NCBI GenBank assembly: GCA_949290565.1
Contig: CASESH010000022.1
Coordinates: 9 to 64,008, forward strand
Direction of reading: 5' to 3'
DNA: 64,000 nt
DNA from: an uncultured Christensenella sp.
GTDB taxonomy: Bacteria > Bacillota > Clostridia > Christensenellales > UBA1242
Position 1 is the first letter of the stretch. Each line of letters starts with the position of its first letter. Below, piece after piece: positions 36,749 to 54,459 of the stretch. A program made the position numbers and the translations under genes. The notes under the pieces were generated by a model. The model was not told the DNA's origin. It did not search any database and saw only the letters and a list, made by a program, of their open reading frames with translations.

Positions 36749-38758
36749 CTAAAAATCTATTGGAGTAAATGTTGGTCTATTTCCAAGAACTATTCTATTC
36801 CTATTTACAATGCTATATAAAATTTCTGCTTCGTTTAAAGACCTTGATGGAACATAACCGGTATGCGTATCGTTATGGTCAAACATAGGAACTCTGAAAT
36901 ACCTAGTTGTTTTTACCCTCATAGGAAATTCATTTTGAATTTTGATAATGAATTCACCCGTACCATCTTTAACATTTAAATGTCCTAGTTCATCAGGATA
37001 AATTAAAGGTCGAGAAACAGTTGAAACACTTTTTGATTTATTTGGAGTATCTTTTCCATTTGCATCTTTTTGTTTGCTTTCAGAGGTTGAAGTAACTTCA
37101 AGTGTTATATCTCCACAAAGTTTACTAAATTCTTCACGAGTTTTTGCATCTGGGGTACCAATGAAAATACTTATTAAACAGTTGCCAATAATTGTTTCGG
37201 CTACTTCGTTACCATATTTTGAACTTAATTGACTATAAGACTGAATAACAAGTGAGAAGTAAATATTTCTACTACGAGAAACAGTAATCATCGTGTCAAT
37301 TTTTTCTATTTTTGGTAAATTAGCAAATTCATCCAGCAAAAAGTAAACGGCACGAGGTAATTTGCCATTTTTGTATTTATTTGCTAAATCAACTAATCTA
37401 CTATAAAGTTGAGAAACCATCATGGTAGCAATGCCATGTCTAGAATCTTTTTCATCTGGAATTATAATAAATAGGGCAGTAGGCTTATCTGCGAAAGATT
37501 CAAAGTTCATTTCATTTTCGCTTGTAGCAAAACACATACCACTATCATTGAAAGTACTAAGAGCAGAAGTAACGATACCCATATAACTCTTTGTTGCACC
37601 AGGAGCGTTGTTAATAGCACCACTTACTAATGGTAATGCCTTGCTATAAGGAGACCTTCCTAAGAAATATTTCTTTAAAGTTTCAAATGGATTGTCTGGA
37701 TTGTTATCTTTATAGTTCGCAATCTTTGATAAATTGTAAAAATTATATCTTTCTCTTGTCATGCCAAGTCTTTCATCAGCACTGTCTTCTAACATAGCGA
37801 GCAAAGTTCCATAAATGAATTCCTGAGCACCTCTTTCCCACGTTTGCTCAGTCTTAGCAGTGATGGGACAAAGAATTCTAGAAATTTCTCTTAAATCATT
37901 TTCAGCCAAGTCAATTAATTGTGCTTTTTTAGATTTTACATCAGTATCTAGCATTTCTTTATTAGGATATGCAACACCATCAAGTTCGTACCATTCATTG
38001 TTGTACTCATTTGCAATAATTTCAAGATTTAAATCTGCCGGATTTACTCCAACATATGTTTTTATTTCTTTCTCTAAGTTTATCGCTTTATTATAAAGTT
38101 GATAAGCATTGTCAAGAGGGTTCCACTTTGTAGAACCAAAAGGCTGTCTTAAATCAAAAACCTTAATTTCATAGCCTTCTTTTTTTAATTTATTGTAGTG
38201 ATGCTGGTAAAGTTCTGCCTTAGGGTCTGTTATAACAAAACTAGGTTTTGTTTTTGTCGATGACATAATTTGAATAGTAGGGTCAATGTATTGTTGAGTT
38301 TTACCTGAACTAGTTGCACCAATTATTAGGGTATGGATTGGACTGTACATATTTATATGAAGATTATTTCTTTCTAGGTAACTTCTAAGTAAAATACCAT
38401 CTGGACTATTGTGTATATTGTTCCAAGTACAATACATAAACCTTTTTTCAGTCCTCAATTCTTTTTCCGTTACCCATCTTGAATCAAAGTATTGAGAAAT
38501 GTCTTTTCCTTCTTTTGTTTTTGCTCCAAGTTGACTTTTATCCTCAGTTTTACCATCTGCAAACTTATTTAATAAATAGACTATATAGGCACCTCCACAA
38601 ATAACTACCGGGAGAATTGTGTAAGAAGATGAAGTTAATGCTTCAAAATTAAAAGGTTGTCCATCTTGTGTCATAAAATAGGCTAATGCTAGTCCTGCTG
38701 CATAAGACAGGGCAAGAATAGGGAAAAGTAACAAAAGTCTTTTAAAACCTTTTTTCAT
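36749..38758 (-). CDS. type IV secretion coupling protein (VirD4/TraG/TcpA family ATPase)
   Basis: Two N-terminal TM helices, Walker A IIGATSSGKTQQ, ITDPKAELY, Walker B VYFLLDEFANLPKI and SRSRNIYFSLVIQSYSQL. These are typical T4CP motifs. Confidence 0.9.
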   Translation of the reverse strand: MKKGFKRLLLLFPILALSYAAGLALAYFMTQDGQPFNFEALTSSSYTILPVVICGGAYIVYLLNKFADGKTEDKSQLGAKTKEGKDISQYFDSRWVTEKELRTEKRFMYCTWNNIHNSPDGILLRSYLERNNLHINMYSPIHTLIIGATSSGKTQQYIDPTIQIMSSTKTKPSFVITDPKAELYQHHYNKLKKEGYEIKVFDLRQPFGSTKWNPLDNAYQLYNKAINLEKEIKTYVGVNPADLNLEIIANEYNNEWYELDGVAYPNKEMLDTDVKSKKAQLIDLAENDLREISRILCPITAKTEQTWERGAQEFIYGTLLAMLEDSADERLGMTRERYNFYNLSKIANYKDNNPDNPFETLKKYFLGRSPYSKALPLVSGAINNAPGATKSYMGIVTSALSTFNDSGMCFATSENEMNFESFADKPTALFIIIPDEKDSRHGIATMMVSQLYSRLVDLANKYKNGKLPRAVYFLLDEFANLPKIEKIDTMITVSRSRNIYFSLVIQSYSQLSSKYGNEVAETIIGNCLISIFIGTPDAKTREEFSKLCGDITLEVTSTSESKQKDANGKDTPNKSKSVSTVSRPLIYPDELGHLNVKDGTGEFIIKIQNEFPMRVKTTRYFRVPMFDHNDTHTGYVPSRSLNEAEILYSIVNRNRIVLGNRPTFTPIDF

Positions 38759-38978
38759 ATTATCACTCCATAATAAATAAAAGATATATTTTAGTATATA
38801 ATAAATTTGTGATTTAAATCAAATAAAATAATGAGAAAAAATGATAATGCGTAATTATTTGTTTTCAAATAAAAAAAATCTTTAAAAATTAAAAAAAGTG
38901 TTGAAATTTGTTTGCATATTGTTTTATTTTATGTTAAATTACAATTAGTTGTTTTAAAAGGATTAATGGAGGAAGTTA

Positions 38979-39329
38979 ATGTTTAACATTTTTAATCTTT
39001 TTGGCGGACCATTTGCACAACAAATACAAGACAACTTTAATAAGGCAAATTCTGTTGAGTGGATTAAACCAATAGTTGAATTCTTAGATAGAATTATTTG
39101 GCCTCTTACAATTATTGTGGCAATAGTTGGTGCAATTTGGGTAATTTGGCTTGGTATAAAAATGGCTAAGGCTGAGGAGGCTTCTAAGCAAAAGGAAGCA
39201 AGAAAGGCATTAATTAATGTTGCAATAGCAATGTTAGTTACATTAATTATTGTTTGGTTATTAACTTGGTTTACTGCAAATTTACCTGCAATATTTAAAG
39301 ATAATAAACCATTCAGTGATTTATCATAA
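38979..39329 (+). CDS. VirB2/TrbC-like (T4SS pilin-like) two-TM small protein, paralogue 1
   Basis: 116 aa with a GGAGG RBS. Two hydrophobic helices are separated by the charged loop KMAKAEEASKQKEARKA. The call also rests on its context next to VirB4 and VirD4. Confidence 0.6.
   Translation: MFNIFNLFGGPFAQQIQDNFNKANSVEWIKPIVEFLDRIIWPLTIIVAIVGAIWVIWLGIKMAKAEEASKQKEARKALINVAIAMLVTLIIVWLLTWFTANLPAIFKDNKPFSDLS
39087..39272 (+). repeat. 186-bp near-identical segment, copy 1 (pairs with 39463-39648)
   Basis: By-eye alignment shows 3 mismatches in 186 nt against 39463-39648, whereas the flanking coding sequence of the same two genes is much more diverged. Confidence 0.85.
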
Positions 39330-39354
39330 AATTTTATTAAAATTTGGAGGAGAA

Positions 39355-39735
39355 ATGTATAGTTTATTTAATTTATTAGGTGGGCCATTTGAAAATCAAA
39401 TTAGTTCTGGCTTTGGTGAAGATAGTTCGGTCGCTTGGTTAAAACCGATAGTCGAGTTCTTGGATAGAATTATTTGGCCTCTTACAATTATTGTAGCAAT
39501 AGTTGGTGCAATATGGGTAATTTGGCTTGGTGTAAAAATGGCTAAGGCTGAGGAGGCTTCTAAGCAAAAGGAAGCAAGAAAGGCATTAATTAATGTTGCA
39601 ATAGCAATGTTAGTTACATTAATTATTGTTTGGTTATTAACTTGGTTTGCAGCTAACCTATCTGCTATTTTTGATGATAATAAACCATTTAGTGATTTGC
39701 CAAAAACTGCATTTAAAAATTTTTTAAAGTATTAA
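39355..39735 (+). CDS. VirB2/TrbC-like two-TM small protein, paralogue 2
   Basis: Start at ATG 39355 after GGAGGAG. The core is near-identical to paralogue 1. Confidence 0.6.
   Translation: MYSLFNLLGGPFENQISSGFGEDSSVAWLKPIVEFLDRIIWPLTIIVAIVGAIWVIWLGVKMAKAEEASKQKEARKALINVAIAMLVTLIIVWLLTWFAANLSAIFDDNKPFSDLPKTAFKNFLKY
39463..39648 (+). repeat. 186-bp near-identical segment, copy 2
   Basis: See copy 1. The mismatches are at GTG/GTA, ATT/ATA and ATA/GTA codons. Confidence 0.85.
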
Positions 39736-39753
39736 AATTTTAAAATGTCATAG

Positions 39754-39788
39754 AAAAGTCTAATTTTTGATTAGGCTTTTTTATTTTT
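39754..39788 (+). terminator. terminator after pilin-like paralogue 2
   Basis: AAAAGTCTAAT pairs with ATTAGGCTTTT (one G-U pair), followed by a T-rich run. Confidence 0.55.
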
Positions 39789-39965
39789 CACTTTTTTTAA
39801 ACATTAATTAATAATTATTGTTATTAAATATTTTTTAAATTAACGATTTCTTTTGCTTTATAACTTTGTTAGTTAATTTTTGTAACAAATATTAATTTTT
39901 ATTTGATTAAATTTGTTTTTGTGTGTTAAAATATAAAGAAATAAATTCTCGATAAAGGAGAAAAA

Positions 39966-40322
39966 ATGGGACTATTTAATTTTTTACTTGCCTCTAATGA
40001 CTATTTAACAGGAATTTTTGATGGTAGTAAATTAGAAGGTGAAGGTTATGAATATTTAATACCAATAGTTAAATTTTTTAATCAATTTTTAATTCCTATT
40101 TCAATAACTCTTTTGTTGGCAGGAACTTTCATATCAATATTTTTGGCTTTTATGATGATTAAACAAGAGGATTCTTCTAAAAAAACTGCTCTTAGAAGTA
40201 GATTAATTGGTATTGTTATAACTGTTTTAATAGTTACTGCTTTAATTTGGCTTCTTGCTTGGTTAATTGCAAACTATCCAGCAATTATGGGTAGTATTAG
40301 AGAAAATATTGATCCTAAATAA
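39966..40322 (+). CDS. VirB2/TrbC-like two-TM small protein, divergent paralogue 3
   Basis: 118 aa with the same architecture and alignable landmarks (..IPIVKFFNQFLIPISI.. / ..LIWLLAWLIANYPAI..). It has its own RBS (AAAGGAG) and its own terminator. Confidence 0.55.
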   Translation: MGLFNFLLASNDYLTGIFDGSKLEGEGYEYLIPIVKFFNQFLIPISITLLLAGTFISIFLAFMMIKQEDSSKKTALRSRLIGIVITVLIVTALIWLLAWLIANYPAIMGSIRENIDPK

Positions 40323-40500
40323 ATTACAAATTGTACCTTATTATCATTACTTTATTAACATAGGATTTTATATAATAATTATAAAATTTCCTTATAAATT
40401 AATTATTTTAAGATAAAGATAATTTAAAATAATTAATTCTTGGTAAATTGCTAGTTTAAACTATATTTTTCTGATTTATTTTGAATGTAATTATATTTAA

Positions 40501-40527
40501 AAACAAGTATTAAATGCTTGTTTTTTT
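40501..40527 (+). terminator. terminator after pilin-like paralogue 3
   Basis: ACAAGTAT pairs with ATGCTTGT (one wobble pair), followed by TTTTTTT. Confidence 0.55.
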
Positions 40528-40728
40528 AATATTTTTTTATTATTTACAAAAACTAACAAGTGTATATATTTCTTTGTATTTTATTTAGAAAAATTTTTAA
40601 TTTAATATAATTTTATTCTAAATTTTATATTAATTTTGGCGTATATTTTCTATGAAAGTATTTGGTTGTTTTTGTTGTTTTATGATAAAATAATTACAAA
40701 ATGGAAAACTAAAAGGGAGGAAGTATTT

Positions 40729-42657
40729 GTGTTGAATAAAAAAAACAAATTAAATAAATTATTTTCACTTTTTTTAGTTTTATGTTTTTCCATAATTTCC
40801 ATAATTTCATTTTCAGGTTGCAGTGAAATTAATGCTAATATGTATATGTCAATGGTGATGCATAGACCAGATTCTTATATTAATGGAGATACTGACATTT
40901 TAGAACTTTATGCTGATAATGTTCTTATTATATCAAACAATATTTGTAATGATTTGCTAAATAATTTTGGTGTACATAACAATGAAAATCAAATGACTGA
41001 TTTTAGGTCATTGTTTATGATTAATAACAACAATACTAATTTTAGTGTTATAAACACATCTAGGGACTTTTCTATAATTAATTCGTATATTTATTATAGA
41101 TTGCCAACTTTAAATGTTCCTATATTAGCGTTAGGAAATGTTTATCTAACTAGTGGTACTATTGATGGCGCAACTGAAATAAAAGATAATAAAATTTATT
41201 CTACATTGTCATCTTCTTCATCTACAAAATTAATGCAACTTAGTAATACTATTGATTCAAATAAACTTTTATTAAGTGGAGCAGAACTACAAATTAATAA
41301 TGTTTATAAATTATATAATTCTACAAGTATGGAAATTGATCAAGTTGTTTATTTCTTTATTGGAAATAACATAGGAGGCTATGATATTTCAACTAACGAA
41401 GGGGCTTTACAACTAATAAATAAAATTTATTCTGGTAATTATGCTAAAATCCAACATGATGTAAATTTAAATGAAGTTATAAACACAACAACTGCTTCAC
41501 CAATCAATTATAATAAATGGAATTTTTCTTTAAATACTAGTGATTTTACAAGTTATTATGCTAATCCAGAAGAATATAAAAAGATATTTATTCAAAAATA
41601 TTCAGAGGATATTGCAGTTCAATTATATAAATCTCTTTTAGTTGGTAATGAAGTGCAAAGATTTGGTACTCTATATACAAGCGCTTTAACTGGTGATAAC
41701 ACTGTATTTACTTTACAAGACTTTTACCTTGAAGCAATAAAATATATTGGAGTTGATAGGTCTAAATCTACATTTTCTATAAGTAAATTAGGAAAAACAT
41801 TTGCTTCAACTCAATTTGGAGAAAAAAAAGTTTTCTTAATGGCTTGTAGGCAATTTAGATTGCAATATGGATACTCTGAATATAGCGTAGAGAATTTGTT
41901 TTCTTATGCTTTTGTAGAAGAAATTATTGGCGGACAAGCAGATAACATTAAAGATTCAATTTTACAAATTTTAGTTAGTAATGCAAATTATTCATATTCA
42001 GAAGATGAAGAATCTCAAAATGTCTCTTATTCTTTGATGAAAAATTATTTAGATGGGGATTCACAGCAACAAACCAATTTAACTCTTCCTTTTGTTTCGA
42101 ATGTTTATGACCTTTCAGATGTAAGTCTTTTCCCAACAGACAACTCATATTTTATTAACTCAATGATTTTTAAAGGTGTTACTAATCAAGATTCCATTGA
42201 GATTAGTTCTTTTTACATGTCCTTTTCATGTGATAATATAGATTCAATAATTAATAATTATACTTTTTTGGTTAAGTATTGTACCTATGGTTTATTTGGA
42301 ATGTCTAGTGTAGAAATGTTTTTGTTGGATATGAATGAGGACACAATTTCTAATTTAGAGGTTGGATTATTGTATTTTGAATTCGAAGACTTAATTAGAC
42401 TAAATAATAACGGAGATGTAAATTCTATTCAAGACCGTGATCCTATTATTTTAAATACTGCAACTAAAGATGGTTCAATTCCAACATTTAATAATAACGT
42501 ACTGAATTATGCAGATGAGTTTAATGTTTCTAAAACATGGGGAACTTATGGAAATGGTTGTCTATATAATTCAAAAAAAGAAAAGAATGATTATTTTGAA
42601 ATAATTATGTTGTCTAGTTTATATGTTCCTATTTCTATTGAAATGATTTATTTTTAA
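40729..42657 (+). CDS. large surface lipoprotein of unknown function
   Basis: GTG start at 40729, 8 nt after GGGAGG. The signal peptide has the lipobox ISFSGC. The remaining roughly 600 aa are N/S/Y-rich with no motif I recognise. Confidence 0.7.
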   Translation: MLNKKNKLNKLFSLFLVLCFSIISIISFSGCSEINANMYMSMVMHRPDSYINGDTDILELYADNVLIISNNICNDLLNNFGVHNNENQMTDFRSLFMINNNNTNFSVINTSRDFSIINSYIYYRLPTLNVPILALGNVYLTSGTIDGATEIKDNKIYSTLSSSSSTKLMQLSNTIDSNKLLLSGAELQINNVYKLYNSTSMEIDQVVYFFIGNNIGGYDISTNEGALQLINKIYSGNYAKIQHDVNLNEVINTTTASPINYNKWNFSLNTSDFTSYYANPEEYKKIFIQKYSEDIAVQLYKSLLVGNEVQRFGTLYTSALTGDNTVFTLQDFYLEAIKYIGVDRSKSTFSISKLGKTFASTQFGEKKVFLMACRQFRLQYGYSEYSVENLFSYAFVEEIIGGQADNIKDSILQILVSNANYSYSEDEESQNVSYSLMKNYLDGDSQQQTNLTLPFVSNVYDLSDVSLFPTDNSYFINSMIFKGVTNQDSIEISSFYMSFSCDNIDSIINNYTFLVKYCTYGLFGMSSVEMFLLDMNEDTISNLEVGLLYFEFEDLIRLNNNGDVNSIQDRDPIILNTATKDGSIPTFNNNVLNYADEFNVSKTWGTYGNGCLYNSKKEKNDYFEIIMLSSLYVPISIEMIYF

Positions 42658-42735
42658 TTTTGTCTTATTTTGTTGTATATGTAAGTTAAAGTTTGTTATA
42701 ATAAATTAATTCCATTTTATTTATTGGAGGTCTTA

Positions 42736-45573: not shown

Positions 45574-45617
45574 TATTCTTTTTAGAAATAAATTTATATA
45601 ACGAGGTAAATGTTATT

Positions 45618-48245
45618 ATGATGAGATATATACCTAGAAAAACAAAAGTAAAAATGGAATTTTTTAAAGGTGTTACTTTGGCAGATGTTATAGTCGCTGC
45701 CATTGCTCTTGCTGTTGCTGCTATCTTCATTATTAGTAATTTACCTTATAAATGGTATATTGCTCTTGGTTGGTTATGTATCATGGCTATGATGTATATT
45801 CCTGTTGAAGATGGTTTGAGATTACATGGTACGCTTGGATTAATAGTTAGATTTGTTGCTTTTAAGAAAAACTATAATAAATCAGAAGTTAACAAAAGAA
45901 CTAATCGTTTAAAAATAAGAGATATTGTACCATATGAAGGAATTATTCAAGATAAATTTATTGATTTTAAAGAATATTATGGTATGGTAATTGAAATAAA
46001 ACCAATTGAGTTCGGTCTTTTAAATGAGAAAAAACAGGAAATGGTTATAAATTCTTTTGCAAATGCTATAAGAAGAATTGCTAATGAACAATCTGCAAGC
46101 ATCATAAAAGTTAATAAGGCGCTTGTTTTTGATGACTACATTACAAATGAGGATAAAAAATATGATGATTTGATGGAACTTCAATATGAAGGGGAGATGA
46201 CTGAGGCCGAAATTACTGCAAGGTCTGATGTCTTTGAAACTAGGGTTAGACAACTTGACAACATGAATAAAAGTGAAAAGGTTTATAAAGATTTCTTTTA
46301 TATTGTTGTTTATGATAAAGATATGGAAACTCTTGAAAGTACTATTGATGGTATGGTCAACACTCTTGGTAACAGTGTAGTTCCTCTTGTTTCACATAAA
46401 CTTGTTGGAAAAGAACTTCCTATATTCCTTAGAGCAAATTATAGTAAGTTTTTTGATGAAAGAGATTTGGAAAATATTCCAAGAGACCAACATATAAATT
46501 GGTCTATTCCTGAAAGTATAAATTTTAAAACAGGCAAAACAATTATTGATAAGCAACCTTATAAAACTTTTGTAATTACAGAGTATCCTATTGAAGTTGG
46601 TAATGCTTGGGGTGCTCCTCTTTTTGCAATTGGAAATACAAATGTAGTTGTCAATTTTAAACCTGTTCCAAAGGCCATTGGGGAAAAAAGAATTGATAAA
46701 TCTATTATAGAAATGGAAACTAAAATTTTTGGTTCCTATAAGAGTAGCCAAAAGGTTGAACTTGAAATCCAATATAATTCCTTAAAAGAATTGCTTGTTA
46801 TGTTAAAAGGTAACAATGAACAACTTTTTGAAACTAATATTCATTTAATTTGTGAAGATTCAGCAAAAAAAGAAGTTAGGGCAATTTTAAAACAAAATGG
46901 TTTTAGATATGCAGAAATGTTTGGCCGTCAAGTTGATTCTTTTATCAGTAGAAATGTTTCTGCCCTTGATACTATTAAAGATTTTAAAAGAGATATTCCT
47001 ACAACAACTCTTGCTTCTATATTCCCATTCATTTCTGGGGCTTTACTTGATGAAAAGGGAATTTATATAGGTTATAATGAATATCCTGTTTTTATTGACT
47101 TATTTAAAAGAGATAAAGAAAGAGCAAATAGTAACGTTATGATTATTGGTAAGTCTGGTGGCGGTAAATCTTATGCAACAAAAACACTACTAACTAATCT
47201 TGCTTGTGATAATACCAAAGTTTTCGTTCTTGACCCAGAAGATGAGTACACCCCTCTTTCTTATAACATGCAAGGTAATGTTCTTGATGTTGGTTCATCT
47301 CAAAAAGGTAGGTTTAATCCTTTTCACATTATGACTACTCTTGATGCTGATGAAGGGGGTTCCGATGATTCCTATTCAACTCACTTACAATTCTTGGAGG
47401 AATTTTTCTCTGTTATTTTACCAGGTATGCCATCAGAGGCTTTTGAGGTTCTAAATTCTTTGACTATTGAGGCTTATAAGCAAAAAGGAATTAATGCTCA
47501 AACTCCTATTACAAAATTAAAACCAGAAGATTTTCCTATTTTTGATGACCTTTATAAACTTGCAAATGATAAGTTAAAAGTTGAAAAAGATGATTATCAT
47601 AGAAGAACTTTACAAACTGTTGTTACTTACATTTCTAAATTTGCAACGGGTGGTCGTAACAGTAACCTTTGGAATGGTCCAATGTCCATTGCTACTAAGG
47701 AAAACTTTATTACATTTAATTTCCGTTCTTTACTTGCTAATAGAAACCAAGTTATTGCTAATGCTCAAATGCTGTTAGTCTTTAAGTATTTAGACAATGA
47801 AATCATTAAAAATAAGGACTTCAACGATAAATATAAGGCTAATAGACATATTGTTGTTGCCGTTGATGAGGCGCACGTTTTTATTAATCCTAAACACCCA
47901 ATCGCTCTTGAATTTATGGCTCAGATGGCAAAGCGTATTCGTAAGTATGGGGGAATGCAAATTGTTATTACACAAAACATTAAAGACTTCGTTGGTAGTG
48001 TAGAAATTCAAAGACAATCAACGGCTATTATTAATGCTAGTCAGTATTCATTTATTTTCTCACTTGCACCTAACGATATTACTGACCTTATTGACCTTTA
48101 CAGAAATGCTGGTGAAATCAACCAGGAAGAACAAGATAGCATTGTTACGGCAGGAGTTGGACAGGCTTTCTTAATTACAGGAGCATTGTCTAGGACCTCT
48201 GTCAAAATTGAGGCAAATGAGGCTGTGAAAAAATTATTCTCTTAA
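45618..48245 (+). CDS. VirB4/TraE/TcpF-family T4SS ATPase with N-terminal VirB3/PrgI/TcpE-like TM module
   Basis: Two N-terminal TM helices (aa about 20-65). Walker A IIGKSGGGKSYATKTLL (about 47147-47173), FVLDPEDEY, Walker B VAVDEAHVF (about 47851-47880) and RKYGGMQIVITQN. Confidence 0.9.
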   Translation: MMRYIPRKTKVKMEFFKGVTLADVIVAAIALAVAAIFIISNLPYKWYIALGWLCIMAMMYIPVEDGLRLHGTLGLIVRFVAFKKNYNKSEVNKRTNRLKIRDIVPYEGIIQDKFIDFKEYYGMVIEIKPIEFGLLNEKKQEMVINSFANAIRRIANEQSASIIKVNKALVFDDYITNEDKKYDDLMELQYEGEMTEAEITARSDVFETRVRQLDNMNKSEKVYKDFFYIVVYDKDMETLESTIDGMVNTLGNSVVPLVSHKLVGKELPIFLRANYSKFFDERDLENIPRDQHINWSIPESINFKTGKTIIDKQPYKTFVITEYPIEVGNAWGAPLFAIGNTNVVVNFKPVPKAIGEKRIDKSIIEMETKIFGSYKSSQKVELEIQYNSLKELLVMLKGNNEQLFETNIHLICEDSAKKEVRAILKQNGFRYAEMFGRQVDSFISRNVSALDTIKDFKRDIPTTTLASIFPFISGALLDEKGIYIGYNEYPVFIDLFKRDKERANSNVMIIGKSGGGKSYATKTLLTNLACDNTKVFVLDPEDEYTPLSYNMQGNVLDVGSSQKGRFNPFHIMTTLDADEGGSDDSYSTHLQFLEEFFSVILPGMPSEAFEVLNSLTIEAYKQKGINAQTPITKLKPEDFPIFDDLYKLANDKLKVEKDDYHRRTLQTVVTYISKFATGGRNSNLWNGPMSIATKENFITFNFRSLLANRNQVIANAQMLLVFKYLDNEIIKNKDFNDKYKANRHIVVAVDEAHVFINPKHPIALEFMAQMAKRIRKYGGMQIVITQNIKDFVGSVEIQRQSTAIINASQYSFIFSLAPNDITDLIDLYRNAGEINQEEQDSIVTAGVGQAFLITGALSRTSVKIEANEAVKKLFS

Positions 48246-48278
48246 TGCGAATTTATTGTTATTTTGTTGTTTTTTATG

Positions 48279-48307
48279 AGTAAGTTAAAAGACTTACTCT
48301 TTTTTAT
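48279..48307 (+). terminator. terminator after virB4
   Basis: GAGTAAGT pairs with GACTTACTC, followed by TTTTTT. Confidence 0.65.
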
Positions 48308-48399
48308 TGTCAATATTTACAAATAAAATATTTACTCTTGATTTTTAACATATAATATGTTATATTTGTCATAACAAAAAGGTGAGGTATTTAAATTTT

Positions 48400-50547
48400 A
48401 TGAAAAATGATGTAATGAAAGAATTAAATAAACAGGCTTTTGATCTTTTTAAGGCTTACATTAGCAAGGTTACTGAAAAAAGAGAAACTCTTGAATCTTT
48501 GCTTGAAAAGATTAAAGATACTAATTCTATTGATTTTATTAAAGACATAAAATTATTTCCTGATAGTAAATTAGATTCTGCTTCTGCAAGCCAAAAAGAT
48601 GAAATTTGTAAGATGTTCTTAGAAAATTGCAATGAGGAAAATTTTTCTAAATTGCTTGCTTTTTTAGAAGATAATATTGAGGGTGTTAAAACAAGAACTG
48701 TTGGTGATTTTGATAATATAATGCATGTTATTTCTGAGGGAGATAATAAAATTAAAGATAAAAATCATAAAAACAATTACTTGTTAAGTGCTTTTAAATT
48801 GTTAGAAGATGGTGGTGAAGGTTTAACAGGTGATGAATTAGTTAATTTACTTTCGTCCTATCAATTTAATAATGAATTTATTTATAAAAATAAAAATAAT
48901 TTTGAGCATTTCCGTAACATTCAATATGATTTGTTCATTGATGGAATTTTTAGCAAAAAAATTAATAAAAAACTTATTGATAAATTACAAGAAATTGGCA
49001 TAGATTCTACTTTGCTTGAAGGTATTTTAAAATCAGAACAAGAACTTGCTTTATCTAATTTAAGTAAAACAGATAAAATTGATGTTAAGGATGTTTTTAC
49101 ACCTATTGTTGAACTAGATAATAAAATAGTTAGCACTATTGCTGGTTCATTTGTAAAGGGGCATCTTCAACTTGAAGATAGCGAAAATCCTATTGTTAAT
49201 CTAAATAAATTAAAAGCAAAAGATTTTGATTTGTTAAGAAAAATGCTAGGTTTAGGTAAAGATGTTTCTATTAAAAATTATAGTCTAAAATTAAAAGAGT
49301 ATGCAGATTCAATTGATTTTGTTACTAGCAAATTCTTTGAGGACTATAATTCTAGTATTAGAAAAGATTTTACTGAAAACGATTTCAAACTTTACTTAGT
49401 TAATACTTTAATTAAAAATGGCGCATTGGCTAAACAAAATAAAGAAGAATTTTTGAATGCTTGTATAAAAGCAACTTTGGAAAATGACTTCAAAATGGTT
49501 ATGGAAGATGATAAACAAAAACCTATTGAATTCGTTAAGAAAGAAAAAGGCAAATTTTATACAAAAGGTTATGTTTATTATGATGGTAAAGTTTATGAAC
49601 TCGACAATGTTCCTCTTTCTAAACAAAACAAGGGTGAATTCTCTGTAAGTAGTAGTTATGATTTAGATGCTATTAAAGAGGATTTAAAGAAAAAATATGG
49701 AACTTATTTTAATGATTTGAAATTGGACAATGTTCATTTTGACAAAATGCCTCTTAGTGAATATTTTATAGATTTATACGACAAAGAAGTCTCACCAGAA
49801 CAATTACCTGTACAAAAAATTGATCCTAACTTTATTTTTAATTCTACTGATTTTTATAAACAAGCATTAAGAGAATCAAGACAAAAGGCAGTAGAGTATC
49901 TTGCTACATATGGTCCTACTCCTACTCCTACTCCTGTTCCAAATCCAAACCCTAATCCTAAACCTCGCAATAAGAATAGAAAAAGGGCTAAAAAACCAAA
50001 TTTTACATCAAGTAAAAATTATCTTTTAAATAAAATATCTTTTTTAACTTCTTCAAACGATTATGTAGGTTTAGTAAAATTCTACAATGCTTTAATTAAA
50101 AAGTACAGTGATAGTTTAAAGAAGTATGATATCATAAATGATAAACAGGCTACCGATTATGTTCTTTTCTTAGAAGATAAAATTAAGACTTTTAAAGATT
50201 ATATTAATGATAATTTTGTTAAAAATGATTTTAATAACTTTACTCCTATAAAACCAACAATTAAAAAATTTACTAATGTTAAACCTGCTAATTTTACTTC
50301 TAGAAAAAGAAATATTGAAAATAAAATTGGTGTTCTTACAACTTCAAATGATTATAAAGGTATGGTTAGTTTTTATAATAGTTTAGTAAATAGATACAAT
50401 AGTTTACCACAACAATATGATGTTATAAATGACCAAAAAGCAAAAGATTATTTCTCATTCTTAGAAACAAAACTTAATAATTTTCAACAATATATGAATG
50501 ATAACTTTGTAAGAAAAGATTTTGAAGAACCTCAATTTTTAAAATAA
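48400..50547 (+). CDS. hypothetical soluble protein with PT/PN linker and two C-terminal ~85-aa repeats
   Basis: ATG at 48400 after AGGTGAGG. No TM segment. The linker is PTPTPTPVPNPNPNPKP (about 49912-49968). Two paralogous modules (about 49993-50240 and 50281-50535) share NFTS..K...L.TSNDY.G.V.FYN.L...Y......YD.IND..A.DY..FLE.K...F..Y.NDNFV..DF. Confidence 0.7.
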   Translation: MKNDVMKELNKQAFDLFKAYISKVTEKRETLESLLEKIKDTNSIDFIKDIKLFPDSKLDSASASQKDEICKMFLENCNEENFSKLLAFLEDNIEGVKTRTVGDFDNIMHVISEGDNKIKDKNHKNNYLLSAFKLLEDGGEGLTGDELVNLLSSYQFNNEFIYKNKNNFEHFRNIQYDLFIDGIFSKKINKKLIDKLQEIGIDSTLLEGILKSEQELALSNLSKTDKIDVKDVFTPIVELDNKIVSTIAGSFVKGHLQLEDSENPIVNLNKLKAKDFDLLRKMLGLGKDVSIKNYSLKLKEYADSIDFVTSKFFEDYNSSIRKDFTENDFKLYLVNTLIKNGALAKQNKEEFLNACIKATLENDFKMVMEDDKQKPIEFVKKEKGKFYTKGYVYYDGKVYELDNVPLSKQNKGEFSVSSSYDLDAIKEDLKKKYGTYFNDLKLDNVHFDKMPLSEYFIDLYDKEVSPEQLPVQKIDPNFIFNSTDFYKQALRESRQKAVEYLATYGPTPTPTPVPNPNPNPKPRNKNRKRAKKPNFTSSKNYLLNKISFLTSSNDYVGLVKFYNALIKKYSDSLKKYDIINDKQATDYVLFLEDKIKTFKDYINDNFVKNDFNNFTPIKPTIKKFTNVKPANFTSRKRNIENKIGVLTTSNDYKGMVSFYNSLVNRYNSLPQQYDVINDQKAKDYFSFLETKLNNFQQYMNDNFVRKDFEEPQFLK

Positions 50548-50567
50548 ACTAAAACGGAGATGTTTAA

Positions 50568-50798
50568 ATGAGAAAGATTGATTATAGTTATAAAATTTTA
50601 GAAAAAATGCTTACTTTAAAACCATTTGATAGTAGAGAAGAAGTCTTAGATGTTGCAAAAAAAATGATTGAAATAGCAAAAAAGAAAGGTTGTGATAGTG
50701 AATTAATGGCAGAATATGAAGATGCCTATGATAAATTACAATCTATTGAGACTTTTGATGAGATGAAGAATTTAATTTCAATGTTATCAAATAATTAA
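50568..50798 (+). CDS. hypothetical small acidic protein (76 aa)
   Basis: GGAG RBS. It lies 20 nt downstream of the previous gene and is followed by a strong terminator. Confidence 0.55.
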   Translation: MRKIDYSYKILEKMLTLKPFDSREEVLDVAKKMIEIAKKKGCDSELMAEYEDAYDKLQSIETFDEMKNLISMLSNN

Positions 50799-50805
50799 GA
50801 TAAAT

Positions 50806-50832
50806 AAAAATCCACCATTAAGGTGGATTTTT
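50806..50832 (+). terminator. strong intrinsic terminator closing the T4SS-like block
   Basis: AAAATCCACC (50807-50816) pairs with GGTGGATTTT (50822-50831) across a 5-nt loop. Confidence 0.8.
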
Positions 50833-50876
50833 ATTGTCTAATTGACTGTTTTAATCTATTTTGTTACAATGTTTGT

Positions 50877-51431
50877 ATGATTAAATATAAAAAATGTCCA
50901 AGATGCAACGCTAAAAATGGCTTAAATGATAATAAATGTTTTAATTGTGGGTTAATTTTTGAAAGAATGAAAAAGACAACAAATAGGGCAGGAAAACAGG
51001 CTTTAAGAAAAAAAGAATTTAATAAGGTTGTTTATACTAGTGAACTTCCAAAAGATTTAAACAAATGGAAACTTTTCTTTTTGACACTTTTTTTTGGCCT
51101 TTTTGGGGTACATTACGCATATGTTGGTAGAAAAAAAATTTTTATCTTTACTATAATCAGTCTTTTTTTACTTTTAATTTATTCTTTGTTCATTTATTTT
51201 AATGTTTATCCTGTTTTCTTTGAAACTAATTTGGCTTTAATTATATTTGTAATGCCTTATGTTTTTGTTATGATTTTATATTTTAGTTGTATAGTTCAAA
51301 TATTGACAAATACTTTTAAAGTTCCCGTTTCAATTGATGAAGAATATATTATTGAAAGTTTGGATAAAAATGTTGTTACAAATATTCTAAAAGATGTAAA
51401 AAATAATAAGGATTTAAAAAATGAAAAATAA
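50877..51431 (+). CDS. zinc-ribbon plus TM2-domain membrane protein
   Basis: Start at ATG 50877, because the ORF-track start would run through the terminator. It has CPRC...CFNC and the TM2-like motif [21 protein letters not shown]. Confidence 0.65.
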
Positions 51432-52509
51432 AATAAAAGTGGTTGTTGGTATGTCAGGTGGTGTAGATAGTGCTGTAAGTGCTTTACTCCTTAAACAGCA
51501 GGGATATGATGTTATTGGTTTATTTATGAATAATTGGGAAGAAAAAGATGAAAATGGAGTTTGTACTGCTACCGAAGATTATGAAGATGTAAAAAGAGTT
51601 TGTTCTAGTCTTAATATTCCGTATTATTCTGTAAATTTTAGTAAACAATATTATGATAGAGTTTTTACTACTTTTTTAGAAGAATATCAAAAGGGAAGAA
51701 CTCCTAATCCAGATGTCTTATGTAATAGAGAAATTAAGTTTGGACCATTCCTTGAATATGCTGAAATGTTAGGGGCTGATTTTATTGCAACCGGACATTA
51801 TTGTAAGGTTGTGGAAAAAAATGGTTTGTATTATTTAAAAAAAGCAAAAGATAAATCTAAGGACCAAAGTTATTTTTTAAATCAACTAAATCAGTACCAA
51901 CTTTCAAAAGTGATTTTTCCATTAGCAGATATTGAAAAAACTGAGGTTAGAAAAATAGCCTTACAAAATCAACTTGAAAACGCTAAAAAGAAAGATAGTA
52001 CCGGAATTTGTTTTATAGGAGAAAGAAATTTTAAAAAATTTTTACAAAGTTATTTACCTGCAAAAAAAGGAAACATTGTTGATTTAAATGGTAACGTTGT
52101 AGGCACACATGATGGTGTTTTATATTATACCTTAGGTCAAAGACGTGGTCTAAATATTGGTGGTTTAAAAGGTGGAAACGGTAAGAGTTGGTTTGTGCTT
52201 GATAAAGATGTTAAAAATAATTTACTTATTGTAAGTCAAGGCGAAGATGAAAAACTTTTTAGTTCTTCTCTTATTGCAGTTGATTTTAATTGGATTCCTA
52301 ATATTCCAGAACAAAATGAATTTGATTGTTTTGCTAAATTTAGATATAGACAACCCGACCAAGAAGTAAAAGTAAAAATTTTAGACAATGTCGTTCACGT
52401 ATTTTTTAAGGAAAAACAAAGAGCCATAACTCCTGGACAATATGTAGTTTTGTACGATAGTAATGAAAATTGTTTGGGTGGGGGTGTTATAGATAAAGTA
52501 ATTTTTTAA
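51421..52509 (+). CDS. mnmA: tRNA 2-thiouridine(34) synthase
   Basis: PP-loop [27 protein letters not shown] and TGHY motifs. Length 362 aa. Confidence 0.95.
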
Positions 52510-52555
52510 ATTAAAAAATTATTACATTTTTTTAAAAAGTAACATAATATGATTT

Positions 52556-53122: not shown

Positions 53123-53172
53123 ATATTTTTATACCATTCAAAAACTTGATTTAAATTTCTTTTTATATTAAA

Positions 53173-53856: not shown

Positions 53857-53859
53857 ATT

Positions 53860-54456: not shown

Positions 54457-54459
54457 AAA

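What the first reader, a model, noticed from the sequence alone, without database searches (positions are those of the whole stretch)
36749..50798. Minimal type IV secretion gene set with no relaxase, integrase/transposase or wall hydrolase, in the core chromosome of a walled spore-former
Seen in sequence: a VirD4/TraG-type coupling ATPase with Walker A/B and two TM helices, and three VirB2-like two-TM proteins. Also a 640-aa lipoprotein, a 945-aa VirB6/TcpH-like polytopic protein, and a VirB4 ATPase carrying a VirB3/TcpE-like N-terminal TM module. A 715-aa soluble repeat protein and a 76-aa acidic protein complete the block. All ORFs are long and uninterrupted in DNA where AT-rich stop codons arise easily, which argues for ongoing selection rather than decay. 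Missing by eye are any HUH or Rep_trans-type relaxase, tyrosine or serine recombinase, and DDE transposase. Also missing are ParA/B, Ssb, and a VirB1-type hydrolase (lysozyme, SLT, CHAP or NlpC/P60). From established knowledge, Gram-positive conjugative T4SSs normally include such a hydrolase, as PrgK, TcpG and CwlT do. A T4CP normally works with a relaxase or with dedicated effectors. The order lipoprotein, large TM protein, VirB4, then unknowns, with a separate TraG-like gene, recalls Mollicutes ICEs (M. agalactiae ICEA CDS5/14/16/17/19, from memory). Those belong to wall-less hosts and use a DDE transposase, which is absent here. The host here clearly makes peptidoglycan (murB, sleB, lgt). 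Inference: this is either a domesticated T4SS serving protein or DNA export, uptake or contact-dependent interaction, or a new relaxase-independent transfer module. The unknown 715-aa and 76-aa products could be substrate and chaperone, or a novel DNA-processing protein.
Basis: partly seen in the sequence, partly recalled or inferred. Interest (0 to 1): 0.85.

Follow-up and report, generated by a model that had tools for sequence, protein, structure and literature searches.

The report
Chromosomal mycoplasma-type secretion machine in gut Clostridia
An uncultured, spore-forming gut Clostridium carries, as a fixed and inherited part of its chromosome, a complete minimal type IV secretion machine of the kind otherwise known from mobile elements of wall-less mycoplasmas, which suggests a conjugation device taken over for the cell's own use.

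Summary
Window 36749-50798 encodes nine genes:
- a VirD4-type coupling ATPase;
- three VirB2-like two-helix pilins;
- a lipoprotein;
- a VirB6-like polytopic protein;
- a VirB3/VirB4 fusion ATPase;
- a 715-aa soluble protein;
- a conserved 76-aa protein.

A 2816-aa membrane-anchored surface protein (28096-36546) belongs with them. The VirB4, VirB6-like and pilin genes match NCBI's Mollicutes-ICE models. No relaxase, recombinase, transposase, ParA, SSB or T4SS-type wall hydrolase is detectable anywhere in the 64 kb, which otherwise holds core and sporulation genes.

The cluster sits between ypeB and mnmA in every related species examined. VirB4 divergence tracks mnmA divergence (r = 0.93). Within the species the two ATPases show 12 synonymous and 0 non-synonymous changes, while the surface parts change at near-neutral rates.

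VirB4 relatives at 52-83% identity lie among housekeeping genes in at least 80 species-level genomes of uncultured gut Christensenellales-like Clostridia. The best match on any plasmid is about 30%.

This is a domesticated, vertically inherited T4SS, not an ICE fragment. Its substrate is unknown; I favour contact-dependent export. The closest analogue in concept is the relaxase-less chromosomal T4SS of Patescibacteria. I found no prior description.

The parts
28096..36546 (-). 2816-aa giant surface protein. It has an N-terminal signal peptide, an N/S/T/Y-rich (beta-former-rich composition) ectodomain, a single C-terminal TM anchor and a short basic tail. It lies downstream of the T4CP gene on the same strand.
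   Evidence: Sequence and hydropathy. No Pfam, PHROG, NCBIfam or PDB hit. A full-length homologue at 40.5% identity sits at the same place in L091, and N-terminal parts occur in L006, L008, L009, L011 and L014. Other clades carry unrelated giant secreted proteins beside T4CP or VirB4.
36749..38758 (-). VirD4/TraG-type coupling ATPase (T4CP), 669 aa, with two N-terminal TM helices.
   Evidence: Pfam PF02534 6.8e-53, PF12696 2.9e-34, PF10412 3.6e-22. NCBIfam conju_CD1115 296.9 bits, cut-off 250. TM segments. 60-74% identical in clade A. 2 synonymous and 0 non-synonymous SNPs.
38759..38978 (.). 220-bp divergent intergenic region between the T4CP gene and the pilin genes. It is the presumed site of the two promoters (inferred only).
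   Evidence: Gene arrangement. The promoter scan was no better than shuffled sequence in this AT-rich DNA, so no promoter is claimed.
38979..39329 (+). VirB2-like pilin 1 (116 aa): a two-TM helical hairpin with a short charged loop.
   Evidence: NCBIfam Mbov_0395 pilin-like 34.5 bits (cut-off 40); Pfam T4SS_pilin 6e-4. At family level, 19 of 27 homologues hit PF18895, best E 1.4e-10. The AlphaFold model is a helical hairpin, pLDDT 70.
39355..39735 (+). VirB2-like pilin 2 (ORF opens at 39316; likely start is the ATG at 39355). It is a recent tandem duplicate of pilin 1.
   Evidence: 83% amino-acid identity to pilin 1. 300-nt direct repeat at 88% identity, 39035-39334 and 39411-39710. NCBIfam Mbov_0395 36.0 bits.
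39966..40322 (+). VirB2-like pilin 3 (118 aa), a divergent paralogue.
   Evidence: About 35% identical to pilins 1 and 2, with the same two-TM layout. NCBIfam Mbov_0395 21.1 bits.
40729..42657 (+). Surface lipoprotein of about 642 aa (ORF opens at 40636), with a signal peptide ending in the lipobox-like SFSGC.
   Evidence: Sequence. Hydropathy. Gene call of 642 aa in L002. No family or PDB hit. 25-33% identical in clade A. 1 synonymous and 9 non-synonymous SNPs.
42736..45573 (+). Extended VirB6-like polytopic membrane protein (945 aa): about 8 TM segments followed by a 500-aa K/E-rich hydrophilic tail.
   Evidence: NCBIfam MMCAP2_0566_fam 118.2 bits (cut-off 90) and ICE_Mbov_0396_TM 78.9 bits (cut-off 70). 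TM segments. 5 synonymous and 17 non-synonymous SNPs.
45618..48245 (+). VirB4 ATPase with a fused N-terminal VirB3-like membrane module (875 aa).
   Evidence: NCBIfam VirB4_plasma (Mbov_0397 family) 3e-170, 567.9 bits (cut-off 590), full length; CD1110 family 157.5 bits. PDB 4AG5 1.3e-42. 10 synonymous and 0 non-synonymous SNPs.
48278..48299 (+). Terminator-like hairpin followed by a T-run, just after the VirB4 stop codon.
   Evidence: This is a consensus match only.
48400..50547 (+). 715-aa soluble, mostly alpha-helical orphan protein. It has a Pro-rich linker and two C-terminal repeats of about 75 aa. The position is conserved across species; the sequence is hypervariable.
   Evidence: No TM segment. 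No family or PDB hit. Only 5 proteins at E<=1e-3 among 1.84 billion representatives. Alignment of 11 positional homologues has no invariant residue. AlphaFold pLDDT 65; Foldseek found nothing at E<1. 3 synonymous SNPs, 7 non-synonymous SNPs and an indel.
50568..50798 (+). 76-aa helical, mildly acidic protein that always follows the variable protein.
   Evidence: Homologues in 12 loci of clades A-C at 33-61% identity, with conserved motifs. No family hit.
50803..50835 (.). Palindromic terminator-like hairpin that closes the cluster ahead of the zinc-ribbon gene and mnmA.
   Evidence: 14-pair stem; it reads as a hairpin on both strands.

Best explanation
This is a chromosomally fixed, vertically inherited type IV secretion system of the Mollicutes-ICE / Gram-positive (MPF-FATA) lineage, taken over as a host function by a large clade of uncultured gut Clostridia (Christensenellales-like).

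Shown:
- The parts list is T4CP, three VirB2-like pilins, a lipoprotein, a VirB6-like channel protein and a VirB3/4 fusion ATPase.
- The cluster lies in the core chromosome at the same site in related species.
- The two ATPases are under strong purifying selection.
- No mobility or DNA-processing genes lie nearby.

Inferred mechanism:
- The VirB6-like protein and the VirB3/4 ATPase form the membrane channel and motor.
- The pilins, the lipoprotein and the 2816-aa anchored protein form a fast-evolving surface layer that contacts another cell.
- The T4CP feeds a cytoplasmic substrate into the channel.

The substrate I think most likely is a protein. The adjacent hypervariable 715-aa soluble protein, with the conserved 76-aa protein as its adaptor, is the obvious candidate. 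Contact-dependent protein export, rather than self-transfer of an element, is therefore my preferred function.
For: Identity of the parts.

Core context: the 64-kb window runs uvrC, murB, whiA, dnaE, pfk, greA, holB, tatD, ksgA, spo0A, sipL, spoIIR, sleB, ypeB | cluster | mnmA, recX, acpS, mazF-like, trmA-like, lgt. No integrase, transposase, relaxase, ParA or SSB is present. There are no flanking repeats and no compositional break.

Fixed site:
- The right junction with mnmA is conserved in L006, L008, L011, L013, L014 and L015.
- The left junction ypeB / Rho_N protein / giant is conserved in L091 and L093.
- Linkage to mnmA persists in L040 and L049, where VirB4 is only 56-57% identical.

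Co-divergence: pairwise VirB4 and mnmA identities correlate at r = 0.93 over 36 pairs.

Long residence:
- Locus GC ranges from 27% to 42% while VirB4 stays 54-83% identical.
- A housekeeping acetyl-CoA synthetase gene sits inside the cluster in L088.
- In deeper clades VirB4 lies right after rpoA-rplQ, or between hflX and a 3300-aa lipoprotein, or after a phosphoglycerate mutase gene.

Selection: VirB4 has 10 synonymous and 0 non-synonymous SNPs (P about 1e-7 against a 0.8 neutral expectation). T4CP has 2 and 0. The VirB6-like gene has 5 and 17, the lipoprotein 1 and 9, and the 715-aa protein 3 and 7 plus an indel.

Not a copy of a known mobile element: the best plasmid match is 25-30% for VirB4 and 33% for T4CP.

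For a protein substrate:
- The 715-aa protein has no signal peptide yet evolves as fast as the surface parts (21-31% identity where VirB4 is 75-83%).
- It keeps its position after VirB4 in clades A-C and is always followed by the conserved small protein.
- It shows no enzyme-like conservation or fold.
Against: - No substrate has been shown. A T4CP is equally compatible with DNA transfer.
- Only 64 kb of the genome is visible, so a relaxase elsewhere cannot be excluded. Mollicutes ICEs themselves have no identified relaxase (PMC6030558).
- No VirB8-like or VirB1-like component was found. How the machine crosses peptidoglycan is therefore unexplained, unless an orphan protein does it.
- Near-neutral change in the VirB6-like, lipoprotein and 715-aa genes could mean relaxed constraint rather than diversifying selection.
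- The AlphaFold models were of medium confidence (pLDDT 65-70), so the negative fold searches are weak evidence.
- In about 60 of the 80 related loci, T4CP, pilin and VirB6-like genes are not within 10 kb of VirB4. The system may be split or partly lost in those lineages.
- No expression data were examined.
Confidence: 0.6

Rival explanations
1. The machine still moves DNA. It would be a chromosomally encoded conjugation apparatus that transfers chromosomal DNA between cells of the lineage. This would resemble mycoplasma chromosomal transfer or distributive conjugal transfer. It would use an unrecognised or distantly encoded DNA-processing protein, or none.
For: - The closest homologues are conjugation proteins of Mollicutes ICEs.
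- Those ICEs drive oriT-independent chromosomal transfer and have no identified relaxase (PMC6030558, PMC12857230).
- A T4CP with a TrwB-type DNA-binding domain is present.
- Between strains, the cluster has about 14 times the SNP density of the adjacent 7.7 kb of core genes (18 against 1 differences in L001, P = 3e-4). Recombination between strains could produce that.
Against: - No relaxase, SSB, primase or partition gene lies in the cluster or anywhere in the 64 kb.
- The candidate orphan (715 aa) lacks invariant residues, and the PDB fold search returned no match at E<=0.001, none of them a relaxase.
- The SNP excess is also explained by diversifying or balancing selection on surface parts.
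Confidence: 0.25
2. It is a DNA-uptake machine, working like Helicobacter ComB or the archaeal Ced system. It would import DNA for nucleotides or repair in a bacterium with poor biosynthesis.
For: - Relaxase-less chromosomal T4SS-derived importers exist (reviewed in PMC12857230 and PMC12102498).
- More distant members of the same VirB4 clade are labelled Ca. Caccovivens. That genus belongs to family UBA1242, whose genomes lack nucleotide biosynthesis (PMC8035907, PMC12306168).
- The T4CP has a very weak hit to CedB (E = 0.019).
Against: - ComB works without a VirD4-type coupling protein (established knowledge). Here the T4CP is conserved and under purifying selection.
- No ComEC- or DprA-type genes are linked.
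- In Patescibacteria, competence was separable from the T4SS requirement (PMC12857230).
Confidence: 0.07
3. It is a decaying remnant of an integrated conjugative element that has lost its integrase, relaxase and hydrolase and is no longer functional.
For: Canonical conjugation accessories are absent. Three of the genes change at near-neutral rates.
Against: - All ORFs are intact in six assemblies and in over ten species.
- The two ATPases show 12 synonymous and 0 non-synonymous changes.
- The site is the same across species, and divergence tracks a core gene.
- VirB4 relatives at 52-83% identity occur in at least 80 species-level genomes.
Confidence: 0.03

Closest known systems
Conjugative T4SS of Mollicutes integrative conjugative elements (M. 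agalactiae ICEA CDS5, CDS13/15, CDS16, CDS17, CDS14; NCBIfam Mbov_0395, Mbov_0396, Mbov_0397) and the related Spiroplasma plasmid systems
   Same: - The best profile matches are to these models for VirB4 (568 bits, full length), the VirB6-like protein (above cut-off) and the pilin-like proteins.
- The core gene order pilin-like, TM protein, VirB4 is the same, with a separate T4CP.
- There is a surface lipoprotein gene in the module.
- No VirB1-like or VirB8-like parts are recognisable, and there is no identified relaxase (PMC6030558, PMC12857230).
   Different: - Only 25-30% amino-acid identity.
- The VirB4 score is just under the equivalog cut-off (568 against 590), and the pilins are under theirs.
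- No DDE transposase, SSB, ParA-like gene or terminal repeats are present.
- The cluster is not mobile but fixed between core genes.
- The host has peptidoglycan and sporulation genes.
- The T4CP belongs to the clostridial CD1115 family.
- A giant anchored surface protein and the 715-aa/76-aa pair are added.
Chromosomal, relaxase-less T4SS of Patescibacteria (Southlakia epibionticum and relatives; Wang et al. 2023, PMC10633639; Quinonero-Coronel et al. 2025, PMC12102498)
   Same: - Monoderm host.
- MPF-FATA-derived VirB4, T4CP and VirB6.
- Arrays of divergent VirB2-like pilins detected with the same Pfam model, PF18895.
- No relaxase nearby.
- Location among housekeeping genes, including ribosomal genes in some lineages.
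- Conservation across the whole lineage, implying co-option.
   Different: - A different phylum (Bacillota, spore-forming).
- The VirB4, VirB6 and pilin profiles here point to the Mollicutes-ICE branch.
- Whether VirB4 falls inside or outside the Patescibacteria clade was not tested.
- VirB1-like and VirB8-like parts reported in the S. epibionticum locus are not detectable here.
- Essentiality is unknown.
Gram-positive conjugative T4SSs (pCF10 Prg/Pcf, pCW3 Tcp, ICEBs1, C. difficile CTn with CD1110/CD1115)
   Same: T4CP of the CD1115 family, above cut-off. VirB4 with the conserved ATPase domain (4AG5). A polytopic VirB6/TcpH-type protein.
   Different: - The VirB4 match to CD1110 is weak (157 bits against a cut-off of 325).
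- No relaxase, PrgK/TcpG/CwlT-type hydrolase or VirB8-like PrgL/TcpC is present.
- VirB2-like pilins are present. The 2025 review says these are not otherwise found in Gram-positive T4SSs, apart from Patescibacteria (PMC12857230).
Streptococcus suis 89K type IV-C system (effector-secreting minimal T4SS)
   Same: A minimal Gram-positive set built on VirB4, VirB6 and VirD4, with a proposed protein-export role (PMC12857230).
   Different: That system lies on a mobile pathogenicity island and includes a VirB1-like hydrolase. Here there is neither. This comparison rests on the review only and was not tested by sequence.

Membership tests
Mollicutes ICE-type T4SS (MICE) | VirB4 of the Mbov_0397 family (ICEA CDS17) | tested here: inconclusive
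   NF045975 is the best hit by far: 3e-170, 567.9 bits, model positions 5-893 of 894. It falls just below the curated equivalog cut-off of 590. Identity to Spiroplasma and Mycoplasma members is 25-30%.
Mollicutes ICE-type T4SS (MICE) | Mbov_0396 / MMCAP2_0566 polytopic membrane protein (CDS16) | tested here: met
   118.2 bits (cut-off 90) and 78.9 bits (cut-off 70).
Mollicutes ICE-type T4SS (MICE) | Mbov_0395 pilin-like small TM protein (CDS15) | tested here: inconclusive
   34.5, 36.0 and 21.1 bits against a cut-off of 40. The topology is the same, and 19 of 27 family members hit Pfam T4SS_pilin.
Mollicutes ICE-type T4SS (MICE) | Essential surface lipoprotein (CDS14) | tested here: inconclusive
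   A lipoprotein gene lies inside the module. No sequence comparison with CDS14 was possible, and no profile hit was found.
Mollicutes ICE-type T4SS (MICE) | Mobile element: DDE (Mutator-like) transposase CDS22, terminal repeats, excision, SSB and ParA-like genes | tested here: not met
   None in the 64 kb. No flanking repeats. The chromosomal site is fixed across species. Excision itself cannot be tested with these tools.
Self-transmissible conjugative element (MPF-FATA ICE or plasmid) | Relaxase (MOB family or Rep_trans) next to the T4CP or T4SS | tested here: not met
   No relaxase family hit for any ORF of the cluster or window. The orphan 715-aa protein shows no relaxase-like conservation or fold. 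The rest of the genome was not seen.
Self-transmissible conjugative element (MPF-FATA ICE or plasmid) | VirB4 plus T4CP | tested here: met
Self-transmissible conjugative element (MPF-FATA ICE or plasmid) | Integrase/recombinase, or a plasmid replicon | tested here: not met
   None in the 64 kb. No plasmid carries a copy above 33% identity.
Self-transmissible conjugative element (MPF-FATA ICE or plasmid) | VirB1-type peptidoglycan hydrolase and VirB8-like wall-spanning subunit | tested here: not met
   No lysozyme, SLT, CHAP, NlpC/P60 or VirB8/NTF2 hit in the cluster. The orphans (lipoprotein, giant) could hide such folds; their structures were not predicted.
Co-opted chromosomal T4SS of the Patescibacteria type | Location among core genes and conservation across the lineage | tested here: met
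Co-opted chromosomal T4SS of the Patescibacteria type | No relaxase associated | tested here: met
   This holds for the window and for the neighbours scanned in related loci.
Co-opted chromosomal T4SS of the Patescibacteria type | Array of divergent VirB2-like pilins (PF18895 or PF04956) | tested here: met
   Three paralogues in the window and 1-4 per related locus. 19 of 27 hit PF18895, best E 1.4e-10. The window copies alone are below Pfam's cut-off (20-21 bits against 26.6).
Co-opted chromosomal T4SS of the Patescibacteria type | VirB4 belongs to the monophyletic Patescibacteria clade | not tested
The host is a Clostridium, so membership of that clade is unlikely. The claim made here is 'works like', not 'is a member'.
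Co-opted chromosomal T4SS of the Patescibacteria type | Required for growth on a partner cell | not testable with these tools
   This needs cultivation and genetics.
ComB/Ced-type DNA importer | Works without a VirD4-type coupling protein; linked to competence genes | tested here: not met
   A conserved T4CP is part of the cluster. No competence genes are present in the window.

The most novel reading that the evidence does not exclude
The cluster is the cell-to-cell interaction machine of a whole radiation of small-genome, partner-dependent gut Clostridia (Christensenellales, including family UBA1242). It would have been domesticated from a conjugation system independently of, but convergently with, the essential T4SS of Patescibacteria. 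Its hypervariable pilins, lipoprotein, giant adhesin and exported 715-aa protein would set partner specificity. A corollary is that the Mollicutes ICE T4SS and this chromosomal system share a recent common stock within Bacillota.
Probability: 0.3. Interest if true: 0.9.

Novelty: new variant of a known kind. Interest (0 to 1): 0.75.

Why it matters
The 2025 T4SS review (PMC12857230) makes two statements that bear on this cluster:
- VirB2-type pilins are not found in Gram-positive systems, with Patescibacteria as the single exception.

This cluster would be a second, independent case. It is a relaxase-less, chromosomally inherited T4SS with a pilin array, in walled, spore-forming Bacillota.

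It also ties the odd minimal T4SS of mycoplasma ICEs to a chromosomal system in Clostridia. That gives a handle on where the mycoplasma machinery came from.

Part of the lineage that carries this VirB4 clade (family UBA1242) was recently described as having genomes under 1 Mb. Those genomes lack amino-acid, nucleotide and lipid biosynthesis. The authors predicted dependence on partner cells through unknown membrane proteins (PMC12306168). That paper does not mention a T4SS. If this machine is the missing link, the partner-dependent lifestyle of abundant gut bacteria becomes testable with a defined gene set.

Tried and rejected
- Homologue search for the 715-aa protein. Both the single sequence and the 11-sequence alignment returned only the query, probably because low-complexity words swamped candidate selection. 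The exhaustive HMMER scan then found just four relatives.
I used a 5-sequence alignment instead, giving pLDDT 65. Foldseek against the PDB gave nothing below E = 1.
- The pilin model is a plain helical hairpin, and Foldseek cannot discriminate it. The PDB profile search gave only spurious TM matches.
- PDB sequence searches of the giant, lipoprotein, VirB6-like protein and the 715-aa family gave nothing meaningful.
- The PHROG scan was empty apart from two weak hits to the Rho_N-domain protein.
- The promoter scan was no better than shuffled sequence.
- Rfam gave no match in the window.
- The repeat search gave no att-like or terminal repeats, only low-identity AT-rich matches and the pilin duplication.
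- ARAGORN found no tRNA gene in the window, so there is no tRNA integration site.
- L092, a ypeB relative without the cluster, is too distant and too short to count as an empty site.
- The giant protein has no detectable internal repeats and no similarity to the giant proteins of other clades.
- I considered a link to sporulation, because the left neighbours are spo0A, sipL, spoIIR, sleB and ypeB. I rejected it because VirB4 has quite different neighbours in other clades.

Full report
**Observation.** The window is about 25% G+C throughout. Between 36749 and 50798 it holds nine long, uninterrupted ORFs.

- The minus-strand gene 36749-38758 is a VirD4/TraG coupling protein. It matches Pfam T4SS-DNA_transf at 6.8e-53, TraG-D_C at 2.9e-34 and TrwB_AAD_bind at 3.6e-22. 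It has two N-terminal hydrophobic helices.
- On the plus strand come three small two-helix proteins at 38979-39329, 39316/39355-39735 and 39966-40322.
- Next is a protein with a signal peptide ending in SFSGC (ORF 40636-42657; gene calls elsewhere start it at 40729, giving 642 aa).
- Then a 945-949-aa protein with about eight TM segments and a 500-aa hydrophilic tail (42724/42736-45573).
- Then an 875-aa VirB4 with an N-terminal membrane module (45618-48245).
- Then a 715-721-aa soluble protein (48382/48400-50547).
- Last, a 76-aa protein (50568-50798).

The only additions are the refined start codons and a tenth gene that the finding's coordinates leave out. This is the 2816-aa ORF at 28096-36546, downstream of the T4CP gene on the same strand. 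It has a signal peptide, an N/S/T/Y-rich body, one C-terminal TM anchor and a short basic tail.

**Family assignment.** NCBIfam places the core of the machine with the conjugation genes of Mollicutes ICEs.

| Part | Model | Score (bits) | Cut-off (bits) |
|---|---|---|---|
| VirB4 | NF045975 (Mbov_0397 family) | 567.9 (3e-170, end to end) | 590 |
| VirB4 | clostridial CD1110 | 157.5 | 325 |
| Polytopic protein | MMCAP2_0566 | 118.2 | 90 |
| Polytopic protein | Mbov_0396 | 78.9 | 70 |
| Three small proteins | Mbov_0395 pilin-like | 34.5, 36.0, 21.1 | 40 |
| T4CP | clostridial CD1115 | 296.9 | 250 |

I aligned 27 members of the small-protein family taken from related loci. Of these, 19 hit Pfam T4SS_pilin (PF18895), with a best E-value of 1.4e-10. 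The VirB2-like call therefore holds at family level, although the window copies alone sit below Pfam's threshold. The VirB4 ATPase domain matches the solved VirB4 domain 4AG5 at 1.3e-42.

**Surroundings.** I scanned 48 ORFs across the window against Pfam.
- Left of the cluster lie uvrC, murB, whiA, dnaE, pfk, greA, holB, a PSP1-domain gene, tatD, ksgA, spo0A, veg, sipL, spoIIR, sleB and ypeB.
- Right of it lie a zinc-ribbon membrane protein overlapping mnmA, a YtaF-like protein, an HTH regulator, an Impact-family gene, recX, acpS, a MazF-type toxin, a tRNA U5-methyltransferase and lgt.
- There is no integrase, transposase, relaxase, ParA or SSB.
- The only wall hydrolase is the spore-cortex enzyme SleB, next to its partner YpeB.
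- There is no tRNA gene and no Rfam match.
- There are no flanking direct or inverted repeats beyond chance-level AT-rich matches. The one real repeat is the 300-nt tandem duplication that made pilins 1 and 2.
- G+C in the cluster (24-32%) stays within the range of the flanking core genes.

**Relatives.** The exact VirB4 protein occurs on five contigs from five samples, and the exact T4CP on one more. These contigs are 99.7-99.9% identical to the window, and all ORFs are intact.

The protein search gave more than 120 full-length VirB4 relatives at 59-83% identity, on contigs up to 828 kb. Where a source names them, they are called Clostridia, Christensenellaceae or Christensenellales.

The best 80 loci are 52-83% identical. 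All come from uncultured gut or rumen MAGs labelled Clostridia, Christensenella, Christensenellales, Catabacter or Ca. Caccovivens.

**Synteny.** In the nearest group (L006-L015, VirB4 75-83%) the order is the same as in the window: giant, T4CP, pilins, lipoprotein, VirB6-like, VirB4, large variable protein, small protein, zinc-ribbon gene, mnmA, HTH, Impact, recX.

The left junction is conserved too. In L091 (YpeB 58% identical) the order is spo0A, veg, sipL, spoIIR, sleB, ypeB, Rho_N protein, then a full-length giant at 40.5% identity. L093 shows the same arrangement.

Pairwise VirB4 identity tracks pairwise MnmA identity over nine genomes (Pearson 0.93, 36 pairs). The pairs are not independent, so this is a descriptive result.

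Three loci with VirB4 at only 56-57% share the T4CP, pilin, lipoprotein-position and VirB6-like genes upstream of VirB4 (L040, L049, L050). The small protein is detected in two of them (L040, L049). In those two, where the flank is visible, the cluster still lies next to mnmA, now inverted.

In L088 (42% G+C, VirB4 68%, T4CP 63%) an ADP-forming acetyl-CoA synthetase gene sits between the T4CP gene and the rest of the cluster.

In deeper groups VirB4 stands without the other parts within 10 kb:
- directly after secY ... rpoA-rplQ (L038 and three others);
- after a phosphoglycerate mutase gene;
- or, in about 30 loci, after fba, hflX and a PRC-barrel gene, followed by a 3300-aa lipoprotein.

Locus G+C ranges from 27% to 42% while VirB4 stays 54-83% identical.

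The best matches in 72,556 plasmids are Spiroplasma plasmids at 25-30% for VirB4 and C. botulinum plasmids at 33% for T4CP. Nothing exceeds 60%.

Together these results show long vertical residence in the chromosome. They do not fit a recent insertion or a fragment of a circulating element.

**Selection.** I classified the differences between the window and the six same-species contigs.

| Gene | Synonymous | Non-synonymous | Other |
|---|---|---|---|
| VirB4 | 10 | 0 | |
| T4CP | 2 | 0 | |
| VirB6-like | 5 | 17 | |
| Lipoprotein | 1 | 9 | |
| 715-aa protein | 3 | 7 | one indel in its Pro-rich linker |

About 80% of random changes would be non-synonymous. The VirB4 pattern therefore has a probability near 1e-7 under neutrality.

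Between species the same split appears. VirB4 is 75-83% identical, T4CP 60-74% and the 76-aa protein 41-61%. The pilins are 32-60%, the giant 34-49%, the VirB6-like protein 29-41%, the lipoprotein 25-33% and the 715-aa protein 21-31%. The motors are constrained like housekeeping genes (MnmA 75-81%), while everything exposed changes fast.

In L001 the cluster carries 18 differences in 9.9 kb, against 1 in the adjacent 7.7 kb of core genes (odds ratio 14, P = 3e-4).

**The orphan proteins.**
- The 715-aa protein has no TM segment, no family hit and no PDB sequence hit. Only four relatives turned up among 1.84 billion representative proteins, all matching its N-terminal 500 residues.
- An alignment of 11 positional homologues has no invariant residue.
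- An AlphaFold model built from five sequences (pLDDT 65, pTM 0.51) is mostly helical, with one small sheet and two C-terminal three-helix repeats. Foldseek finds nothing in the PDB below E = 1.
- This is weak but consistent evidence against a hidden relaxase or hydrolase.
- The 76-aa protein is helical in character and conserved in 13 loci.
- The giant protein, the lipoprotein and the hydrophilic tail of the VirB6-like protein have no detectable relatives of known function.

**Mechanism.** Three things are shown: the parts list, the fixed chromosomal position, and purifying selection on both ATPases. The working model is inferred.
- The VirB6-like protein and the VirB3/4 fusion form the channel and motor.
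- The pilins, the lipoprotein and the giant anchored protein form a rapidly diversifying contact surface.
- The T4CP recruits a cytoplasmic substrate.

I favour a protein substrate. The candidate is the 715-aa protein with the 76-aa protein as adaptor. It lacks a signal peptide yet evolves like an exposed protein, and it keeps its place after VirB4 with the small protein behind it.

The main rival is DNA transfer of the mycoplasma chromosomal-transfer kind. Mollicutes ICEs also lack an identified relaxase (PMC6030558). The local SNP excess could reflect recombination. DNA uptake and decay are less likely, for the reasons given under the rival explanations.

**Comparison with what is known.** By homology the nearest family is the Mollicutes ICE T4SS. 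Membership as an ICE fails on every mobility feature tested.

By biology the nearest system is the chromosomal T4SS of Patescibacteria. It is relaxase-less, sits among core genes, carries arrays of divergent PF18895 pilins, and is thought to be co-opted. In one species it is essential for epibiotic growth (PMC12102498, PMC12857230).

I found no paper that links VirB4 to Christensenellales. Of the two that hold both 'type IV secretion' and 'Christensenellales', neither title nor abstract concerns a T4SS of that order, and I did not read them.

Ca. Caccovivens labels two of the more distant loci. It belongs to GTDB family UBA1242 and has a 1.1-Mb genome (PMC8035907). A 2025 study describes UBA1242 as having genomes under 1 Mb, with no amino-acid, nucleotide or lipid biosynthesis, retained sporulation genes and a predicted partner-dependent life. 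It mentions unexplained membrane proteins but no T4SS (PMC12306168).

The family of the window's own organism was not determined. Its nearest relatives are labelled Christensenella or Clostridia by their depositors.

**Limits.**
- Only 64 kb of this genome was seen.
- The related loci reach 10 kb to each side of VirB4.
- The structure models are of medium confidence.
- No expression or experimental data were available.
- Whether T4CP, pilins and the VirB6-like protein exist elsewhere in the genomes where VirB4 stands alone is unknown.

Noticed in passing
window 40652-50550 versus 50551-58233: Between strains of the same species, the T4SS cluster carries 18 differences in 9.9 kb. The adjacent 7.7 kb of core genes carries 1 (L001; odds ratio 14, P = 3e-4). 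The cluster is a local polymorphism hot spot, even in VirB4, where every change is synonymous.
   Followed up: partly
window 26525-28048 (+): A 507-aa protein with only an N-terminal Rho_N domain (9.6e-5), an acidic low-complexity middle and an unassigned C-terminal domain. No Rho RNA-binding or ATPase domain was detected. It keeps its place between ypeB and the 3' end of the giant gene in L091 and L093, at 27-48% identity. Whether it belongs to the system is unknown.
   Followed up: partly
L045-L085 (about 30 loci), e.g. L054 10001-22717: In a deeper clade, VirB4 (52-58% identical) stands alone after fba, hflX and a PRC-barrel protein. It is followed at once by a lipoprotein of about 3300 aa with no family hit. 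No T4CP, pilin or VirB6-like gene lies within 10 kb. The four loci without the fba gene at this spot (L059, L070, L075, L076) include both loci labelled Ca. Caccovivens (L059, L070).
   Followed up: partly
L027, L038, L044, L052 (e.g. L038 2951-12676): VirB4 lies directly downstream of the ribosomal-protein / secY / rpoA-rplQ operon (Pfam-confirmed in L038). This echoes the placement of T4SS genes near ribosomal genes reported for Patescibacteria.
   Followed up: partly
L088 1265-3370 (-): An ADP-forming acetyl-CoA synthetase gene sits inside the T4SS cluster, between the T4CP gene and the lipoprotein gene. The genome has 42% G+C and the contig is 828 kb.
   Followed up: no
window 55883-56408 (+): A MazF/PemK-type toxin gene (56067-56408, 1.3e-37) preceded by a 60-aa ORF that could be its antitoxin. 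The toxin gene is conserved at the same place in the related loci L006, L008, L011, L013 and L014.
   Followed up: no
window 39035-39334 and 39411-39710: A recent tandem duplication of a pilin gene (88% nucleotide and 83% protein identity). The number of pilin genes per locus varies from 1 to 4 among relatives.
   Followed up: partly
window 17128-18075, 18141-19628, 2610-3704, 58540-59337, 60231-61217: Five ORFs of 265-495 aa with no Pfam hit; the first three were also scanned against NCBIfam, with no hit. They lie among core genes in this small, AT-rich genome.
   Followed up: no
window 19989-26391 and 52556-53122: A compact run of sporulation genes (spo0A, sipL, spoIIR, sleB, ypeB, plus a weak YtaF-like hit). 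Its order is conserved in L090 and L091. This agrees with the published surprise that reduced-genome Christensenellales keep sporulation genes.
   Followed up: partly
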